A stretch of DNA of 64,000 bases from Armatimonadota bacterium (lineage in GTDB: Bacteria > Armatimonadota > HRBIN16). The stretch is from positions 1,248,001 to 1,312,000 of the forward strand of contig OY781964.1 in assembly GCA_963677485.1 (NCBI GenBank), given 5' to 3'. The translations under genes and the position numbers were made by a program. Each line of letters opens with the position of its first letter. The first letter of the stretch is position 1. The notes beneath the pieces are model-generated. The model worked only from the letters and a program-made list of their open reading frames with translations. It was not told where the DNA came from and did not search any database. Below are positions 47,049-52,866 of this stretch, in pieces.

Positions 47049-48539
47049 ATGCTTAATGCCCCTGATGTAAAGCTTGCGCTGGTCGGCGTCAGCCGCGACT
47101 GTTTCCCCATCGAACTCACCCGAACACGGCTAGGCAAGCTGGCCGAGGCCTGCAAAAAGATCGGTCTGGATGTTTACGTGGCCGAAACCGTGATCGAAAA
47201 TGAGGTTGATTCGAACGCTGCGCTGGACGAGGTGCTCGCGAATGGCGCCAACGCCGCCGTGGTCTACCTGGGCAACTTCGGCCCCGAAGGCCCGCTCAGC
47301 ATCTTCGCGGAGCAGTTCCCCGGCCCGGTGATGGCCTGCGCGGCCGCGGAAGAGTCCGGCAATAACTTGATACAGGGCCGCGGCGATGCTTATTGCGGCA
47401 TGTTGAATGCTAGCTATAACTTCAGCCTGCGGCAGGTCAACGTGCATATCCCCCAAATGCCCGTTGGCTTGGTGGATGAACTGGCTGAGAAGATCGCCCA
47501 TTTCGAGACGGTCGCCCGCATCGTGATCGGTGTGTGGAACCTGAAGATATTCGGATTTGGCCCACGGCCGCAGGACTTCTTTGCCTGCAATGCGCCGATC
47601 AAGCCGTTCTACGACCTGGGCGTTGAGGTGATGGAGAACAGCGAGCTCGACATGTTCGAGCAGTTCAACAAAACATCAGGCGAGGACGCTGAAGTGAAGG
47701 CCGTTCTAGCCGATATGACAAAGGAGTTGAACAACTGCTGCGGAAACAACCATCCGGGGATACTTCCCAAGCTGGCCCGTTTTGAAGTGGCACTACTCCG
47801 ATTCGCAGAGAAGAACATCGGCAGTCGTGACTTCGCCGTCTTCGCCAACAAGTGCTGGCCCGCGTTTGAAACCAGCTTCGGATTCGTGCCCTGCTTTGTC
47901 AACAGCCGCCTGAGCAGCCGCGGCATCCCGGTGGCATGCGAAGTAGACCTGTATGGCGCGCTCAGCGAGTATATGTGCTATCTGGCAAGCTGCCAGCCTG
48001 CCACCTTGCTGGATATCAACAACACTGTGCCCCGCGACATGCTGAAAGGTGCTGACCTGAAGGGTGCCGCAGTTGACGACCTCTTTATGGGATTCCACTG
48101 CGGAAACACCCCCAGTTGCTGCATGAAGAACTGCAGCATGAAGCACCAGTTGATCATGAACCGCCTGCTGGAAGACCCCACCAAGGAGCCAGACATCACC
48201 CGAGGCACACTCGAAGGCCAACTGAAGCCCGGTGACACCACCTTCTTCCGTCTGCAGGGTAATGCAGCCGGCAAGCTGGTGAGTTACGTGTGCGAGGGCA
48301 GCATCCTGGATATCGATCCGCGCAGCTTCGGCTGTATCGGCGTGTTCGCCATCCCCAACTTCGGCCGCTTCTACCGCCATGTGCTCATCGGCAAGCAGTT
48401 CCCGCACCATGGCGCCGTGGCCTTCAGCAAGGTCGGCAAGGCGCTGTATGATGCGGCCTTGATGCTGGGTGTGGAGGATATGAACGTGCCGCTACCCGCC
48501 AGCATGTGGTATCCCACCGAGAACCCGTTCGAGCTTTAG
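47049..48539 (+). CDS. L-fucose/L-arabinose isomerase family protein
   Basis: YLGNFGPE, RGDAYCG, KCWP, CEVD, FHCG, PHHGA. Confidence 0.85.
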   Translation: MLNAPDVKLALVGVSRDCFPIELTRTRLGKLAEACKKIGLDVYVAETVIENEVDSNAALDEVLANGANAAVVYLGNFGPEGPLSIFAEQFPGPVMACAAAEESGNNLIQGRGDAYCGMLNASYNFSLRQVNVHIPQMPVGLVDELAEKIAHFETVARIVIGVWNLKIFGFGPRPQDFFACNAPIKPFYDLGVEVMENSELDMFEQFNKTSGEDAEVKAVLADMTKELNNCCGNNHPGILPKLARFEVALLRFAEKNIGSRDFAVFANKCWPAFETSFGFVPCFVNSRLSSRGIPVACEVDLYGALSEYMCYLASCQPATLLDINNTVPRDMLKGADLKGAAVDDLFMGFHCGNTPSCCMKNCSMKHQLIMNRLLEDPTKEPDITRGTLEGQLKPGDTTFFRLQGNAAGKLVSYVCEGSILDIDPRSFGCIGVFAIPNFGRFYRHVLIGKQFPHHGAVAFSKVGKALYDAALMLGVEDMNVPLPASMWYPTENPFEL

Positions 48540-48609
48540 AGCGGCGTTGGTGGGACGGGACGGGACCGGTTGACGGGCGCGGAGACCGCGCCCCTTGTAT
48601 GCTTATAGA

Positions 48610-48825
48610 TGGAGGTCCTCAGACCTTAACCCAAGACTTGAGGACCATCCTCACACCGGGACGCTGGGGTGAAAGAGAAGGGGTAGATGCCGTCGCGCCC
48701 CTTGTAGCTTTGACTACGCGACGTAGAATGGCACCCTTCTCTGCAATGACCTAACACGAACAGTATCATGGGCTAAAGCCCGCATTTACAAGGATGTCAA
48801 GGTTGATTGCTTCACCTGTGTCCCT
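48610..48825 (+). ncRNA. IS110 bridge RNA (5' hairpin + target-binding loop + donor-binding loop); ends approximate
   Basis: LTG CGCGCCCCT 48693-48701, RTG CGTAG 48722-26, LDG ACAGTATC 48760-67, RDG TACAAG 48787-92. Each guide pair lies in the internal loop of a stem-loop. Confidence 0.88.
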
Positions 48826-48845
48826 AACTAGGAGCATACCGGACT

Positions 48846-50009
48846 ATGCAAATCAATGGCAACTCGTACAGCTACTACGCTGGGATCGACATATCTAAAG
48901 ACACTTTCGACGTGTCGGTCGTTGATCAAGACGGCACCCATCTGATCCACAAGCAGTTTGTGAACAACCAGAAAGGCTTCAAAGAGCTGGTGTCACTCAC
49001 CAGGAAGCAAGGCTGGATGCCTGTGCTATTCGCAATGGAAGGCACTGGCGGATGTGAGCAAAAGCTGCTTGACTACCTGTATAAGCATAAGCAGGCAGTC
49101 TCACGGCAAGAACCCTGTCGAATACACTATCATCGCCTCTCACAAGGATCTCGGCAAAAGACAGACTATGTAGACAGCCTGATCATTGCTGACTACGCAC
49201 TAAAGAACCGCCTGCGGCTCTACATTCCTAAAGGCGAAAGCTATCGGGCGCTGCAGGAGATCGGTCGCACACGGCGCATGCTGGTCAGACACCGGAACTC
49301 CCTGCAGCAGAGGCACTCTCACGCGCAGAACCTGCATGCCAAAGCGGTTCTTCAACGCAGCATAGATCACTGCACAGAGGATATCGATCTTTTGAACTCC
49401 GCGGCTGCTGAGATTATCGCCAGCAATGACAGGCTAGCGGAAGATTATCGCCTCCTGAACAGTATTCCGGGTGTAGGTGATATCACATCCAACTACTTTC
49501 TAGGGCTCATCGGTGATATATCTTGCTTTGCGACGTCTGCGAAGATAATCCGATTTGTGGGTATGAACCCATGCCCGCACCAGTCAGGAACCAGCATCGA
49601 TTCCGAAAGCAGCATATCCAAAATGGGCGATCCCTACATGCGCTCCTTGTTATACACCAGTGCCATGGCTGTATTACATATGGTGGATCACAATTCGAAA
49701 GCACTCCATCGCATGTATCGGTTCGTGGCCAAAATGCGGGAGAGATTCGGCCCGAGTTCTAGCAGGAAGGTCGTATGCGCGGTGATGCGCAAGCTGCTGA
49801 TCTTGATGTGGGCTGTGTTGACCAGGCGTAAGGTTTACGATCCGTGCTACGGACTAGAGCCGCAGGATGCTCCGGCCAACCAGACACCGCAATCCGACGA
49901 CACTGGCCTTGTCCAGTCTCGTGCCGAAGCGGCCTCAGATTTTGCCGGCGAAGGCAATGATGCTGGGCAGGACAGTGGCGTTCCAGGATTGGGATGTCTG
50001 GATGGATAG
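48846..50009 (+). CDS. IS110 family DEDD recombinase/transposase
   Basis: GIDISK, AMEGTG, KTDYVD (DEDD RuvC-like), SIPGVG, HQSG (catalytic Ser motif), SKMGD, AVMRKL. Confidence 0.96.
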   Translation: MQINGNSYSYYAGIDISKDTFDVSVVDQDGTHLIHKQFVNNQKGFKELVSLTRKQGWMPVLFAMEGTGGCEQKLLDYLYKHKQAVSRQEPCRIHYHRLSQGSRQKTDYVDSLIIADYALKNRLRLYIPKGESYRALQEIGRTRRMLVRHRNSLQQRHSHAQNLHAKAVLQRSIDHCTEDIDLLNSAAAEIIASNDRLAEDYRLLNSIPGVGDITSNYFLGLIGDISCFATSAKIIRFVGMNPCPHQSGTSIDSESSISKMGDPYMRSLLYTSAMAVLHMVDHNSKALHRMYRFVAKMRERFGPSSSRKVVCAVMRKLLILMWAVLTRRKVYDPCYGLEPQDAPANQTPQSDDTGLVQSRAEAASDFAGEGNDAGQDSGVPGLGCLDG

Positions 50010-50319
50010 CCACCGTGTGGTTCATCCTTGGCCCCAAGTGGTTGAGCAGCATTCCAGAGCCGGCGAGTCAGCGGTAGAAAGATATGATCACCACTAGCTA
50101 GCTGCTCTTGATCTAGCCGCTAAAATGAACATCATTAGAACGTTATCTTTAAAGCCTCAAAGATGCGGGGTGGGCGTTCATCACTACGGATGACGGGCAA
50201 CCCTTTGCATAACGGTGCATCTTCGCGTGGGACCGGCTTGTGCCATGAGCTTGGGTATACCTAAGGTCTATTTGCCACATTGCATAATATAAACGTTGTC
50301 CGCAGAACGTTATGGGCAT

Positions 50320-50350
50320 AAATCTGGTATTTCGGACAAATACCAGATTT
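50320..50350. terminator. Perfect 13-bp hairpin in the IS110 right end
   Basis: AAATCTGGTATTT-CGGAC-AAATACCAGATTT, just upstream of the outward-facing TTGACA. Confidence 0.55.
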
Positions 50351-50577
50351 CACCCTCGGAGGCCTTGACAAATAACACAGTATCTACGGTCAATTGTAGG
50401 GGCGCGGTCTCCGCGCCCAATGTATTCCGCGCCCACGGGCGACGGCCGGTCGCCCCTGTGATCATCTGTCTCCCGATTGACGTACGACCTTCCTATTCGC
50501 GTTCATTCGCGTTCATTCGCGGTTAAACATACCCTACCGGAAAAGTGACGAGTAGGACAGGCGGCTGCCCTACCGCG

Positions 50578-52866
50578 TTATTTCGCCGGTTGGATCGTGA
50601 ACCGGTCGATTCGGATGGCTTTGATGTTCGGGTTCACTATCGGTGCCACAAACAAGTACATGCCCGGCGTGAGCTCGATCCCTTTATACACCATCTGCTG
50701 ATAGCCAGGCTTGATATCAGCCACAGTCAGCACACTGGTTGTCGTCTTTTCGGTGATTTTGTTACGTATGCCAAACTGCAGCACGCCATCGGTTGGCTGG
50801 CCGGCTTTACCTTCAGCGGGTATCACCTTCACCTCCAGGCTGACATCTACTTTGGGCCACTTCACCTCACCTTCGTAGATGTGGTGCTGCACGGCCCACT
50901 CGGTATGGCTGCACGGCATCTCCGCGGCGTAGCCGTTGCTGGCTTCTGGGTCCTTCACGATATTGACCCAGTTCCCCTCTTCAGCCAGGTTGAAGTCACC
51001 CTCTTGTGCATCCAGCCAGTCCACCCCTTGGACCCCGCTCACGCCCATCGCTGTGTCCGCTTTGGGATAGCTGGGAGGCGGTGCGATCTTGGCCTTGAGC
51101 TGAGTGCGAAAGCCCTCATCCCACTTACGGCCTTCACTGGGCCAGTTGTTTCCGGTTTGGTTGCTCAAGTCCGTGAAGTGATCCACTATGGTGTCCCAGT
51201 TGATCCCTGGCACCTCTTGATGTGCCTGTGCGAGGTTGCGTTTGGTGTTGATCAACACCAGATCCAGTGCCAGGCGTTGAATCTGCACGCGTTTCAGCAA
51301 CGTCGGGTTGTTCTTGACGGCCGCTTCGGCTTGATCGTATAGCCTCTTGAACTTCGTCAGCTCATCGATGTTGTAGTAGTCCGCATTACCGATGTAGCAC
51401 GAAAGCCGCACACCCGAACGTTTGCGGGCCGCTTCCATCGCCAGCACCGCTTCGAGCAGCGGCTTGCCAGCCGGACCGTAATACCCATCCATGAACTCCT
51501 TCATGATGGGCAGTTCGGGCTGGTAGGGGTTCCACATCAGCTTGGACAGCAGATAGACCTTCAATGGATGCATGGTGGAATCCACGTTGAAGCTGTCGCC
51601 TTGTTCAAACATGCCCACCACGTTGTTCTCAGTGAAGCTGCGCAGGTCGGACCCAAGGATGCTGAAGTTCGGGTGAGGAATGAGATAGCTTGAGAAGTCC
51701 ACGACGTAGTTCCATACATACAGCCGTTTCGCGATCTTTTTCCAGTCCGTAAGGTCCTTATAGAATGACTTATTCTCTGCGGCTGTGATAGGCTTGCCAA
51801 AGTCATTCTCGATGCTGCACAGACGCACAATCACGTTGTCGCGCGGTTTAATGTTGGTAGGCGCATGGCGAGTATACTGGTATGCCAGTGTCTCCACAAG
51901 GAAGTCGGGGTACTGCTTTTCAATTTCAACGGCCACGTCGTTGACGAAGCTGATCAGAGCACCAGATTCGGAGCCAGTCTTCTTGACCAGTTCTTTGCAC
52001 TTGTCACACTGACAAGGACTCATATCGTCATTCTGCGTGATAGAGATCATGCCGGCATCGGGCTGTTTGCGAATGGTGTCCAGCGCGACCTTCACCATCT
52101 CCCGCTTCATATCCTCATTGGTCAGGCACATCTGGGTGTAACCACCGTCACGCTTACCGTTGATCAGCGAATACCACTCAGGATGCTGCGCATAGTATTT
52201 AGCGGCAGGCAGCATTTTGTCGAAGGTATGCACAAATCCCAGCAGGTTGTAATGCCCGCCCATCTCGGGCTTGATCTGTTGATGGTGCCCATTCATGCGC
52301 ATATGCACAGGGAAAAGGTCATCCTTCTGTATCACGTTGTAGAAATAGGCCTCGCGATACATCAGCTTGGGTGTGTAACAAACATTCATGGCTGGCACAG
52401 TGATGGTCTTTAACTTGGGAATACGCTGCGCATCCGGGGCATACCAACGCACGCCCAGTTTCGTCTCCAGCAGCTCCTGCACCGCGTAGATGCTGCCCCT
52501 GGGACGATCACCAGATAGTATCAGGTCGCGGCCAGTGGTGCGGATCAGGATGCCATCACGGCGAAGCTGCTCCCAGTTGAAGCCCTTCATCAGCCGTTTG
52601 ACCACGGCGGTCTGACCCACAAATATCCGCGTGCCTGCGGAGGGTGCAATATCGGTGATTTTCAACCGGGCACCACTCATCTGCTGGATCGTGTCCGCGA
52701 GTTGTTTCGCAGCAAACCGCTCCGGCGCGGTGGCGTCCGTGCCCAGCACGATGGTGGCGGTCGGCTTTCCCGATTTCACGACAGTCAACGGCGAGGCTGC
52801 CTTGGCGGGCAGGCTGGCCAACACCAGCAACGGCAAAATGCACGGAATGAGATCACAGACATTCAT
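50578..52866 (-). CDS. Secreted DUF4838 domain protein (paralog 3)
   Basis: Signal peptide, RGSIYAV..LLE..LGVRWY, FVHTF, HPEWY, CQCDKC, TLAYQYT. Confidence 0.85.
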   Translation of the reverse strand: MNVCDLIPCILPLLVLASLPAKAASPLTVVKSGKPTATIVLGTDATAPERFAAKQLADTIQQMSGARLKITDIAPSAGTRIFVGQTAVVKRLMKGFNWEQLRRDGILIRTTGRDLILSGDRPRGSIYAVQELLETKLGVRWYAPDAQRIPKLKTITVPAMNVCYTPKLMYREAYFYNVIQKDDLFPVHMRMNGHHQQIKPEMGGHYNLLGFVHTFDKMLPAAKYYAQHPEWYSLINGKRDGGYTQMCLTNEDMKREMVKVALDTIRKQPDAGMISITQNDDMSPCQCDKCKELVKKTGSESGALISFVNDVAVEIEKQYPDFLVETLAYQYTRHAPTNIKPRDNVIVRLCSIENDFGKPITAAENKSFYKDLTDWKKIAKRLYVWNYVVDFSSYLIPHPNFSILGSDLRSFTENNVVGMFEQGDSFNVDSTMHPLKVYLLSKLMWNPYQPELPIMKEFMDGYYGPAGKPLLEAVLAMEAARKRSGVRLSCYIGNADYYNIDELTKFKRLYDQAEAAVKNNPTLLKRVQIQRLALDLVLINTKRNLAQAHQEVPGINWDTIVDHFTDLSNQTGNNWPSEGRKWDEGFRTQLKAKIAPPPSYPKADTAMGVSGVQGVDWLDAQEGDFNLAEEGNWVNIVKDPEASNGYAAEMPCSHTEWAVQHHIYEGEVKWPKVDVSLEVKVIPAEGKAGQPTDGVLQFGIRNKITEKTTTSVLTVADIKPGYQQMVYKGIELTPGMYLFVAPIVNPNIKAIRIDRFTIQPAK

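What the first reader, a model, noticed from the sequence alone, without database searches (positions are those of the whole stretch)
48596..50385. Intact IS110 bridge-recombination system with a bridge RNA programmed against the host REP repeat
Seen in sequence: the 250-nt left end of the element folds into a 5' hairpin (GGTCCTCA 48614-21/TGAGGACC 48639-46) and a closing stem (GGGAC..GGTGAA/TTCACC..GTCCC). That stem carries two large stem-loops. Loop 1 has stem AGAGAAGGGT 48674-83/ACCCTTCTCT 48733-42 and inner hairpin GTAG/CTAC. It holds CGCGCCCCT (48693-701), identical to the 9 nt left of and including the CT insertion core, and CGTAG (48722-26), the reverse complement of CTACG on the right of the target. 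Loop 2 has stem GCAATGACCT/AGGTTGATTGC and inner hairpin GGGC-TAAA-GCCC. It holds ACAGTATC (48760-67), matching the element's right tip, and TACAAG (48787-92), the reverse complement of CTTGTA (core plus left tip). Established knowledge: this LTG/RTG + LDG/RDG layout is that of IS621-type bridge RNAs guiding DEDD/Ser recombinases. Inference: this is a naturally reprogrammed, likely functional ortholog from a lineage far from E. coli and a candidate programmable recombinase.
Basis: partly seen in the sequence, partly recalled or inferred. Interest (0 to 1): 0.95.

Follow-up and report, generated by a model that had tools for sequence, protein, structure and literature searches.

The report
IS110 bridge-RNA insertion sequence targeting REPs
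This is an intact mobile element of the known IS110/IS621 kind, whose own small RNA reads both the element's ends and a repeated host hairpin to choose where it inserts; it is a well-supported new member of a known system, not a new mechanism.

Summary
Window 48596-50385 is a 1,790-bp IS110-group element bounded by CT cores and inserted between two inverted REP-like hairpins. It encodes a 387-aa DEDD/Ser recombinase (Pfam PF01548 + PF02371; about 30% identical to IS621, PDB 8wt6). Its 250-nt left end folds, with compensatory support, into a 5' hairpin plus two internal-loop stem-loops. Loop 1 carries CGCGCCCCU, identical to the left target plus core, and CGUAG, the reverse complement of core plus ACG. 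Loop 2 matches the element's own right and left tips.

The strongest evidence is natural covariation. Orthologues 84-87% identical (nine copies in a sister genome, two metagenome contigs) and a 46%-identical paralogue (12 copies in this genome) each carry a different left target guide. That guide matches each one's own flank with 0-1 mismatch at 23 of 25 sites.

The 14-bp donor site is identical to the IS621 donor oligo printed in PMC13396178. RNA expression, circle formation and activity could not be tested.

Thousands of such bridge RNAs and REP targeting by IS110 elements are already published. This is a new member of a known kind, from a rare sub-lineage with a C-terminal tail and an unusually long right end. 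Interest is moderate, not 0.95.

The parts
48575..48594 (+). Left REP-like hairpin (GGGCGCGG-AGA-CCGCGCCC+C). Its 3' arm is the left target.
48594..48595 (+). Left copy of the CT core dinucleotide.
   Evidence: The same CT precedes every copy of elements A, A' and B.
48596..50385 (+). IS110-group element 'A', 1,790 bp. The right CT core is counted with the element.
   Evidence: A 100%-identical second copy, split by another IS, and 70-71%-identical paralogues define the ends. The syntenic locus in sister genome G001 lacks it.
48598..48603 (+). TATGCT, the -10 half of a split sigma-70-type promoter. It is completed only in the circular form.
   Evidence: Read. With TTGACA at 50365-70 the spacer across the RE-LE junction is 17 nt. 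The same geometry holds in A', L064, L065 and B. The model comes from PMC11208160. No + strand promoter is found in the integrated state.
48611..48650 (+). 5' stem-loop of the bridge RNA.
   Evidence: helix 1: 17 pairs, 5 with compensatory changes.
48658..48824 (+). Closing stem (GGGAC..GGUGAA / UUCACC..GUCCC) that encloses the two binding loops.
   Evidence: helix 2.
48674..48742 (+). Target-binding stem-loop.
   Evidence: helices 3-5, 93-100% of cells paired, 5 compensatory pairs.
48694..48702 (+). Left target guide CGCGCCCCU, identical to the 7 nt of left flank plus the CT core.
   Evidence: six consecutive variable columns among A-type relatives.
48722..48728 (+). Right target guide CGUAG (reverse complement of CT+ACG), followed by the two handshake positions AA.
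   Evidence: The handshake reading follows PMC11208158. The first A can pair with donor position 7 (T).
48743..48810 (+). Donor-binding stem-loop.
   Evidence: helices 6-7.
48760..48767 (+). Left donor guide ACAGUAUC, identical to the right tip of the element.
48782..48794 (+). Right donor guide GCA-UU-UACAAG. It is discontiguous and is the reverse complement of CT+TGTA and, after a 2-nt bulge, TGC. The handshake positions GA follow.
   Evidence: The discontiguous 9 RNA: 7 DNA pattern is described for IS621 in PMC11208160. Elements A and B covary at donor positions 10 and 14.
48846..50009 (+). Recombinase gene, 387 aa, with RBS AGGAG at 48831-35. The catalytic residues are D15, E65, D107, D110 and S247.
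50010..50385 (+). Right non-coding end, 376 nt. It has conserved short hairpins (for example 50320-50350), TTGACA at 50365-70 and the donor tip.
50384..50385 (+). Right copy of the CT core.
50399..50418 (-). Right REP-like hairpin, an inverted copy of the left one.

Best explanation
Window 48596-50385 is an intact insertion sequence of the IS110 group (IS621-like).

Proposed cycle:
- Its DEDD/Ser recombinase excises the element as a circle.
- Joining the right and left ends places TTGACA 17 nt upstream of TATGCT.
- That promoter drives a bridge RNA of roughly 215 nt from the left end, starting near 48610.
- The RNA's first internal loop pairs with both strands of a host target, CGCGCCC-CT-ACG, the 3' arm and tail of a REP-like hairpin.
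- The second loop pairs with the element's own joined ends, ACAGTAT-CT-TGTAT.
- The recombinase tetramer exchanges strands at the CT core, so the element inserts without duplication beyond CT.

Shown here:
- the anatomy of the element;
- the conserved fold of the left end;
- the guide-to-flank and guide-to-tip matches;
- their covariation among relatives;
- the enrichment of insertions at guide-matching REPs.

Inferred from IS621 work:
- transcription from the circle junction;
- binding of the RNA by the protein;
- the strand-exchange chemistry;
- present-day activity.
For: 1. Protein. PF01548 scores E 1.1e-26 and PF02371 scores E 4.1e-21. The best solved relatives are the IS621 transposase 8wt6 (E 1.1e-24) and ISCro4 9t56 (E 8.7e-23). 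The aligned DEDD and Ser positions are D15, E65, D107, D110 and S247 (residue roles from PMC11208158).

2. RNA fold. z is -4.73. RNAalifold on 5 relatives gives 81 pairs, 14 of them compensatory, with LTG and RTG unpaired. For the 66-pair bridge model, 92% of cells are paired. It has 14 compensatory pairs against 3.8 +/- 1.5 in shuffles (0 of 500 shuffles reach this) and 0-5 in the slid controls.

3. Guide-target covariation. At 25 insertion sites of 5 element types, the cognate 9-nt LTG has 0 mismatches at 13 sites, 1 at 10, 2 at 1 and 3 at 1. A non-cognate LTG fits better at 1 of 25 sites. Among four A-type RNAs, 37 of 252 columns vary, including 6 of the 9 LTG columns (Fisher p 4e-4).

4. 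Target choice within this genome. There are 313 REP-hairpin+CCCCT sites. The 12-copy paralogue B occupies 6 of 11 sites with 0 mismatches to its LTG, 4 of 29 with 1, 1 of 62 with 2, and 0 of 211 with 3 or more.

5. Donor guides. LDG and RDG match the tips. A and B differ at donor positions 10 and 14, and their RDGs differ in the complementary way.

6. Donor identity. The 14-bp donor equals the IS621 donor oligo core printed in PMC13396178.

7. Conservation. The left end is more conserved than the coding sequence between A-type copies: 90-98% against 87-90%, with the right end at 72-80%.

8. Recent movement. Two copies in the genome are 100% identical, and the syntenic site in sister genome G001 has no element.
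Against: - No expression or activity data exist. The runs that hold the locus are kept as contigs only. They show no circle junction and no empty site. The one 'joint' seen is a paralogous REP pair elsewhere in the genome.
- The single RNA-library contig (209 nt, 49823-50031) lies in the 3' part of the gene, not in the bridge RNA. It could also be DNA carry-over.
- No Rfam 15 family matches the left end at E up to 10.
- In this copy's own minimum-energy fold, parts of the guides are paired.
- Element A has one intact copy. The second copy is broken by an IS21-family insertion.
- 7 of 8 REP sites that match its LTG perfectly are unoccupied. Its second copy sits at a site with 2 LTG mismatches.
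- One metagenome relative (L067, 92% identical over residues 1-222) has unrelated sequence upstream in place of the left end.
- The right end (376 nt) is longer than the left end (250 nt). This is the opposite of the trend reported for the IS110 group (PMC11208160).
Confidence: 0.88

Rival explanations
1. The system is a genuine bridge-RNA element by descent but is no longer mobile, or barely mobile, in this genome. It would be a recent relic rather than a working recombinase. This is compatible with the best explanation for what the element is; it disputes only 'functional now'.
For: There is only one intact copy. The other is split by an IS21-family element. 7 of 8 REP sites that match the LTG perfectly are free. 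The ORF stops 13 codons earlier than in the three 400-aa (Ap, e64) or equivalent (e65) relatives. No circle or empty-site contig was seen (contigs only).
Against: The ORF is open, and all five catalytic residues are present. The two copies are 100% identical over 1,790 nt, so a transposition was recent. The left end is 97.6% identical to that of a metagenome relative. IS621 itself excises rarely, and its RNA is weakly expressed from chromosomal copies (abstract of PMC13626964).
Confidence: 0.25
2. The left end is only a structured 5' leader that controls recombinase translation. Target choice would be made by the protein, and the guide matches would be coincidence or a by-product.
For: The extreme left tip (48597-48604) can pair with the RBS region (48833-48840) in the fold and in 4 of 5 relatives. 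This would silence read-through transcripts.
Against: Proteins that are 84-87% identical go with different left target guides, each matching a different flank. Variation is concentrated in six consecutive guide columns. Four separate guide segments sit in the positions and orientations described for IS621.
Confidence: 0.03
3. The guide RNA lies in the long right end, as in the IS1111 group (seekRNA type), and the left-end structure is something else.
For: The right end (376 nt) is longer than the left end and holds several conserved hairpins. One search finds 88 predicted pairs, 21 with compensatory changes.
Against: The right end has no match of 7 nt or more to the target or tips beyond the tip itself. 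Its overall fold is not better than shuffles (z -1.36). It is the least conserved part of the element (72-80%). All four guide matches lie in the left end.
Confidence: 0.02
4. The CGCGCCCCTTGTAG stretch in loop 1 is a fossil of an old left junction (flank plus element tip) captured inside the element, not a guide.
For: In A-type copies, the LTG plus the next 5 nt equals the present left junction at 13 of 14 positions.
Against: In paralogue B, the bases after the LTG (GGUG) do not resemble its own tip (AGTA), yet its LTG still matches its flank. The stretch sits inside a conserved, compensated stem-loop. It changes together with the flank in each lineage.
Confidence: 0.03

Closest known systems
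IS621 of Escherichia coli with its bridge RNA (Durrant et al. 2024, PMC11208160; Hiraizumi et al. 2024, PMC11208158)
   Same: - Domain pair PF01548 + PF02371, with DEDD and Ser.
- CT core, and a left-end RNA with a 5' hairpin, then a target loop, then a donor loop.
- 9-nt LTG and 5-nt RTG that include the core; a discontiguous RDG; position-7 handshake complementarity.
- A split promoter across the circle junction.
- Insertion just 3' of a REP hairpin whose tail reads ..CCTACG. The E. coli REP queries printed in PMC11208160 end in GGCCTAC(G).
- An identical 14-bp donor.
   Different: - Only about 30% protein identity and no DNA similarity.
- The seven non-core LTG bases differ.
- 387 aa against 326 aa, because of a conserved acidic/glycine-rich tail of about 60 aa.
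- Left end 250 nt against 191 nt.
- Right end 376 nt, longer than the left end.
- The host is probably Armatimonadota.
ISCro4 (PDB 9t56)
   Same: It is the second-best solved relative (E 8.7e-23), with the same domain layout.
   Different: About 30% identity. Nothing further was compared here. I recall that it is the element engineered as IS622, but no call confirmed this. Of the IS622 preprint (10.1101/2025.05.14.653916) only the search listing was seen.
ISPpu9 and ISPpu10 of Pseudomonas putida (PMC12288879, search listing only; 10.64898/2026.03.19.712850, abstract only)
   Same: IS110-family elements that insert into REP sequences. For ISPpu10 a target DNA hairpin 5' of the site is reported to be required. 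Here the insertion sites lie directly 3' of a hairpin in 13 of 14 cases in this genome and 7 of 9 in G001.
   Different: The ISPpu10 RNA is reported to lack the 5' stem-loop, whereas this one has it. No sequence comparison was made. A hairpin requirement was not tested here. One G001 insertion (L043) is at a non-hairpin site with a perfect LTG match.
IS1111 group / seekRNA elements
   Same: The same recombinase family, and an RNA-guided choice of target.
   Different: In those elements the RNA lies in the right end and they have long subterminal inverted repeats (PMC11208160). Here the guides lie in the left end.

Membership tests
IS110 family, IS110 group (IS621-type bridge recombinase with bridge RNA) | RuvC-like DEDD domain (PF01548) with the four acidic residues | tested here: met
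   (E 1.1e-26, residues 12-156). D15, E65, D107 and D110 align with the IS621 DEDD residues (residue roles).
IS110 family, IS110 group (IS621-type bridge recombinase with bridge RNA) | Tnp domain (PF02371) with the conserved serine followed by glycine | tested here: met
   (E 4.1e-21, residues 202-287). S247-G248 in HQSGTS aligns with ESG of IS621.
IS110 family, IS110 group (IS621-type bridge recombinase with bridge RNA) | No terminal inverted repeats, and a short core (CT) present at both junctions | tested here: met
   CT lies at 48594-95 and 50384-85. The same holds at all 25 junction pairs examined.
IS110 family, IS110 group (IS621-type bridge recombinase with bridge RNA) | [quoted passage not shown] | tested here: met
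IS110 family, IS110 group (IS621-type bridge recombinase with bridge RNA) | First loop: the 5' side equals the left target top strand (8-9 nt), and the 3' side is complementary to the right target top strand (4-7 nt). Both include the core and covary with targets. | tested here: met
IS110 family, IS110 group (IS621-type bridge recombinase with bridge RNA) | Second loop: the same arrangement against the joined ends of the element | tested here: met
   There are two compensating differences between A and B. In A-type copies the LDG covers C8 but not T9 of the core, and A' has a mismatch at donor position 7.
IS110 family, IS110 group (IS621-type bridge recombinase with bridge RNA) | Promoter rebuilt across the RE-LE junction of the circle | tested here: inconclusive
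   TTGACA, a 17-nt spacer and TATGCT are present by reading, and are conserved in all five element types. Neither the circle nor the transcript was observed.
IS110 family, IS110 group (IS621-type bridge recombinase with bridge RNA) | Left end longer than right end (a typical trait of the group, not a defining one) | tested here: not met
   The left end is 250 nt and the right end is 376 nt. The trend is stated in PMC11208160.
IS110 family, IS110 group (IS621-type bridge recombinase with bridge RNA) | RNA is expressed and bound by the recombinase, and RNA-dependent recombination occurs | not testable with these tools
   Only contigs of public runs were available.
IS1111 group | Guide RNA in the right end and long subterminal inverted repeats | tested here: not met
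REP (repetitive extragenic palindromic) elements | Short GC-rich palindromes repeated many times, often as inverted pairs | tested here: met
   313 hairpin+CCCCT sites. GCCCCTACG occurs 232 times against 59 expected. Inverted pairs are shown.
REP (repetitive extragenic palindromic) elements | Association with a RAYT-type Y1 transposase | tested here: inconclusive
   The genome has 3 PF01797 loci. None of the 3 has the GTAGGGGC/GCCCCTAC motif within the roughly 1.5 kb fetched on each side.

The most novel reading that the evidence does not exclude
This rare sub-lineage may carry an extra layer on top of the IS621 mechanism. Only 3 of the clusters at 50% identity match through the C-terminal tail, out of 3,317 IS110 relatives at E up to 1e-10. 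The conserved tail of about 60 aa and the unusually long right end, with its conserved hairpins and repeated ACGTT motifs, could together form a module. That module might gate recombination on the REP hairpin, or control excision or expression.
Probability: 0.12. Interest if true: 0.6.

Novelty: new member of a known kind. Interest (0 to 1): 0.35.

Why it matters
It adds a cleanly documented natural example of guide reprogramming. Near-identical elements in two sister genomes, and a paralogue in the same genome, each read a different stem variant of the host's REP hairpins. Insertions are concentrated on the best-matching variants. It is also a distant orthologue (about 30% identity to IS621) that keeps the very same 14-bp donor. 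That makes it a reasonable candidate for screens of bridge recombinases. It does not open a new question: the mechanism, its covariation signature and REP targeting are published.

Tried and rejected
- Rfam 15 scan of 48000-51000 at E up to 10 gave one spurious minus-strand lncRNA hit only.
- blastn of the element against 20,395 E. coli records gave no match. A direct RNA-to-RNA comparison with IS621 was therefore not possible.
- tblastn against plasmids gave 771 records, all under 60% identity. Two were fetched (H29 = L076, H4 = L077) and the ends of L076 were read. They showed no resemblance to this donor, and this line was dropped.
- The genome-contig scan returned only the sister genome (8 loci).
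- The cluster look-up gave no names. The protein atlas gave no useful taxon.
- Public runs: 23 were listed and 5 hold at least half of the sampled words. Four were laid, and all are contigs, so they carry no information on transcript starts or levels. The apparent deletion joint 48594 to 50399 has 14 other letters between its sides and is the paralogous REP pair at C1:2713120, not an excision product. The parts without cover in the RNA run say nothing.
- A first count of REP sites wrongly counted sites occupied by B as free. One search replaced it.
- I looked for extended RTG pairing beyond 5 nt. It fits only the second A copy (7 nt) and none of the other sites read.
- The pairing of the LTG with the 3' side of loop 1, seen in this copy's own fold, is kept in L064 through wobble pairs but lost in L065 and A'.
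- RAYT linkage of the REPs was not found at 3 of 3 Y1_Tnp loci.
- Supplementary files of the papers were closed. I could not check whether this element is already among the orthologues listed by Durrant et al.
- No search was made to show that this particular element is unpublished.
Full report
**What is there.** The window holds a 1,790-bp insert at 48596-50385. It has one long ORF, 48846-50009 on the + strand, of 387 aa. The ORF carries the two Pfam domains of IS110-family recombinases: PF01548 (E 1.1e-26, residues 12-156) and PF02371 (E 4.1e-21, residues 202-287). The best solved relatives are the IS621 transposase (8wt6, E 1.1e-24) and the ISCro4 transposase (9t56, E 8.7e-23), at about 30% identity. 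The residues aligned with IS621's D11, E60, D102, D105 and S241 are D15, E65, D107, D110 and S247. Their roles are taken from passages of PMC11208158. A CT dinucleotide precedes the left end (48594-95) and ends the right end (50384-85). Removing the insert leaves GGGCGCGGAGACCGCGCCC-CT-ACGGTCAATTGTA followed by the inverted copy of the same 20-mer. This is the same hairpin-tail-spacer-tail-hairpin layout as several uninterrupted pairs elsewhere in the genome.

All listed motifs are present, with two one-base slips (see the observation check). The 250-nt left end folds at -95.2 kcal/mol against -71.7 +/- 5.0 for shuffles (z -4.73; 0 of 200 shuffles as good). The fold is a 5' hairpin, then a closing stem that carries two stem-loops with internal loops. 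In this copy's own minimum-energy fold, four LTG bases and two RTG bases pair with each other, and three LDG bases pair with the RDG.

**Copies and relatives.**
- The host genome is one 5.22-Mb contig of 54.4% GC. It has this intact copy and a second, 100%-identical copy split at position 622-627.
- The split is a 2,563-bp IS21-family element with IstA and IstB and a 6-bp duplication.
- The genome also has 12 copies of a paralogue, called B here. B is 1,812 bp, with 46% protein identity and 70-71% DNA identity over two short stretches. Two B copies carry a 16-bp deletion and a split frame.
- A sister genome of the same genus, G001, has nine copies of an orthologue, A', at 83-84% protein identity.
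- Four metagenome contigs hold relatives at 84-92% identity. L064 and L065 are complete. L066 equals A'. L067 has unrelated sequence in place of the left end.
- The syntenic intergenic region in G001 is 226 bp and holds no element. In the window the same region is 222 bp once the insert is removed. It has diverged, so it is not an exact empty site.

**Fold conservation.** I aligned the five distinct left ends: A, L064, L065, A' and B.
- RNAalifold predicts 81 pairs, 14 of them with compensatory changes, and leaves the LTG and RTG columns unpaired.
- For a 66-pair bridge model without the loop-internal pairs, 92% of cells are standard pairs.
- That model has 14 compensatory pairs, against 3.8 +/- 1.5 in shuffles (0 of 500 shuffles reach this) and 0-5 when partners are slid by 1-3 columns.
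- Five sequences are few and they are related, so these figures are supportive rather than conclusive.
- Between A-type copies, the left end is more conserved (90.0-97.6%) than the coding sequence (87.2-89.7%) and the right end (71.6-79.6%).

**Guides and targets.** The layout matches what sections 6 and 7 of PMC11208160 describe for IS621. The first loop is for the target and the second for the donor. The 5' side (8-9 nt) has the sequence of the top strand. The 3' side (4-7 nt) is complementary to the top strand. The core is included in all four pairings.
- In A the LTG is CGCGCCCCU (48694-702) and the RTG is CGUAG (48722-26).
- In A' the same columns read GGGUCAUCCCU, and the flank reads GGGTCATCCCT at 6 of 9 sites.
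- L064 has CGUGCCCCU next to the flank CATGCCCCT. L065 has GUGGCCCCU next to GTTGCCCCT.
- B has GAACCGCCCCU next to CGAACCGCCCCT.
- Over all 25 sites, the cognate 9-nt LTG has 0 mismatches at 13, 1 at 10, 2 at 1 (the second A copy) and 3 at 1 (a B site with an extra C).
- A non-cognate LTG fits better at 1 of 25 sites. There the L064-type guide fits the second A copy's site.
- The 5-nt RTG has 0 mismatches at 16 sites, 1 at 8 and 2 at 1.
- Among the four A-type RNAs, 37 of 252 columns vary, and six of these are the consecutive non-core LTG columns (6 of 9 guide columns; Fisher p 4e-4).

**Donor guides.**
- The LDG ACAGUAUC (48760-67) equals the right tip.
- The RDG UACAAG (48787-92) is the reverse complement of CT+TGTA. 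After a 2-nt bulge, GCA (48782-84) continues the pairing.
- This gives the discontiguous pattern described for IS621.
- A and B differ at donor positions 10 (T/A) and 14 (T/C), and their RDGs differ in the complementary way (A/U and A/G).
- The base just 3' of the RTG is A in all five RNAs and can pair with donor T7. The base just 3' of the RDG is G in all five and can pair with target C7.
- That is the position-7 handshake described in PMC11208158. This is my reading of the alignment, not a test.
- The 14-bp donor (right tip, CT, left tip) is identical to the donor core of the IS621 dDNA oligo printed in the methods of PMC13396178.

**The target is a REP-like family.**
- The exact 20-mer is rare: 5 copies in the genome.
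- It belongs to a family of GC-rich hairpins whose stems vary by compensating changes and whose tail is GCCCCTAC(G/A). GCCCCTACG occurs 232 times against 59 expected.
- A stricter count finds 313 hairpin+CCCCT sites: 300 free, 11 with B and 2 with A.
- B occupies 6 of 11 sites with no mismatch to its LTG, 4 of 29 with one, 1 of 62 with two, and 0 of 211 with three or more.
- A occupies 1 of 8 perfect sites and 1 of 126 two-mismatch sites. Its perfect sites are therefore mostly free.
- The target 12-mer of A' occurs 30 times in G001 and 12 times in this genome. The reversed control gives 1 in each. Both hairpin families therefore exist in both genomes, and the two orthologues read different ones.
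- Insertions lie directly 3' of a hairpin at 13 of 14 sites here and 7 of 9 in G001. One G001 site (L043) is not a hairpin but matches the LTG perfectly.
- E. coli REP queries printed in PMC11208160 end in GGCCTAC(G). The CT-AC(G) half of the target is thus the same as for IS621.
- A link to a RAYT transposase was not found: 0 of 3 Y1_Tnp loci carry the motif nearby.

**Promoter.** TTGACA at 50365-70 is followed by 15 nt of right end. In a circle, two bases of the left end then precede TATGCT (48598-603), giving a 17-nt spacer (read). The same geometry holds in A', L064, L065 and B. In the integrated state the scan finds no sigma-70-like site on the + strand upstream of the RNA. This fits the published model of a junction promoter (passages of PMC11208160). 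It also fits the weak chromosomal expression reported for IS621 (abstract of PMC13626964). Neither a circle nor a transcript was observed here.

**What is unusual.**
- The protein has a tail of about 60 aa beyond the IS621-like core. The tail is conserved between A and B.
- In a full HMMER pass over 1.84 billion representatives, 11,043 proteins match at E up to 0.001 and 3,317 at E up to 1e-10. Among the 150 listed, only three match beyond about residue 360: P0004, P0208 and P0209.
- The right end is 376 nt, longer than the left end, which is contrary to the IS110-group trend. It holds conserved short hairpins, although its overall fold is unremarkable (z -1.36).
- No function is proposed for either feature beyond the speculative reading in the novel case.

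**Host.** Eight of the 12 organism names among the 120 listed homologues of the neighbouring fucose-isomerase-like gene are Armatimonadota. Three are Phycisphaerae and one is Planctomycetota. This is weak evidence from one gene. It does support 'far from E. coli', together with the absence of any DNA match there.

**Novelty.** The following are all in print:
- the bridge-RNA mechanism;
- its covariation with targets and donors (5,511 and 2,201 pairs);
- predicted RNAs in 85.7% of ISfinder IS110s;
- REP targeting by IS621, ISPpu9 and ISPpu10;
- hairpin gating.

The sources are sections and passages of PMC11208160, abstracts and search listings. This element is a new member of that kind. I could not check the closed supplements to see whether it is already listed.

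**Verdict.** The finding is a new member of a known kind, and interest is 0.35.

Noticed in passing
Genome C1, e.g. 2863787-2865598 (L004, L017); 12 copies listed: A second IS110-group element (B, 1,812 bp, 46% protein identity) has its own bridge RNA aimed at the GGGCGRTTCGCGAAYCGCCCC hairpin variant. Two of the 12 copies carry a 16-bp deletion that splits the ORF (near C1:1369454-1370607 and C1:1871543-1872696).
   Followed up: yes
Genome C1:2667677-2672038 (L002, L003, L078): The second copy of element A is interrupted at its position 622-627 by a 2,563-bp IS21-family element (IstA with rve and Mu-transposase C domains; IstB) with a 6-bp duplication. Its own insertion site has 2 mismatches to A's LTG but fits the L064-type guides better (1 LTG mismatch, 8 of 8 extended RTG).
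   Followed up: partly
window 50010-50385: The right end is 376 nt, longer than the left end. It holds an invariant hairpin ATCTTT..AAAGAT (about 50141-50166), a 13-bp hairpin at 50320-50350 just upstream of the -35 box, and three ACGTT(A/G)T motifs. Its function is unknown.
   Followed up: partly
window 49830-50009 (protein residues about 330-387): A C-terminal acidic/glycine-rich tail is conserved between A and B but absent from IS621-length relatives. Only 3 of the 150 best representatives match through it. In A the ORF stops 13 codons earlier than in its three 84-87% relatives.
   Followed up: partly
window 48597-48604 with 48833-48840: The extreme left tip can pair with the RBS region (GUAUGCU/AGCAUAC). 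The pairing is kept in 4 of 5 relatives. It would mask the RBS only in transcripts that start outside the element, not in those from the junction promoter.
   Followed up: no
L067 (metagenome contig, 1,713 nt): This contig has a recombinase gene start 92% identical to A, but the sequence upstream of the RBS is unrelated, so the bridge-RNA region is missing or replaced.
   Followed up: no
window 50486-50527: A tandem TTCATTCGCG x3 stretch belongs to a dispersed short repeat. It gave many short hits in G001 and G002. It also shows a large pile-up of contig depth and loose ends.
   Followed up: no
window 49080-49089: A 10-nt exact reverse complement of the left tip (48598-48607) lies inside the coding sequence. 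It is the longest tip-complementary match in the element and is possibly chance.
   Followed up: no
Genome C1:376078, C1:2992049, C1:4121913 (L079-L081): Three Y1_Tnp (PF01797) genes are flanked by other palindromic repeats, not by the GTAGGGGC/GCCCCTAC family.
   Followed up: partly
Genome-wide, and G001: A second hairpin family (GGATGACC..GGTCATCC-CTAC) occurs in both sister genomes. The 12-mer is found 12 times here and 30 times in G001. Only the G001 orthologue is programmed for it.
   Followed up: partly
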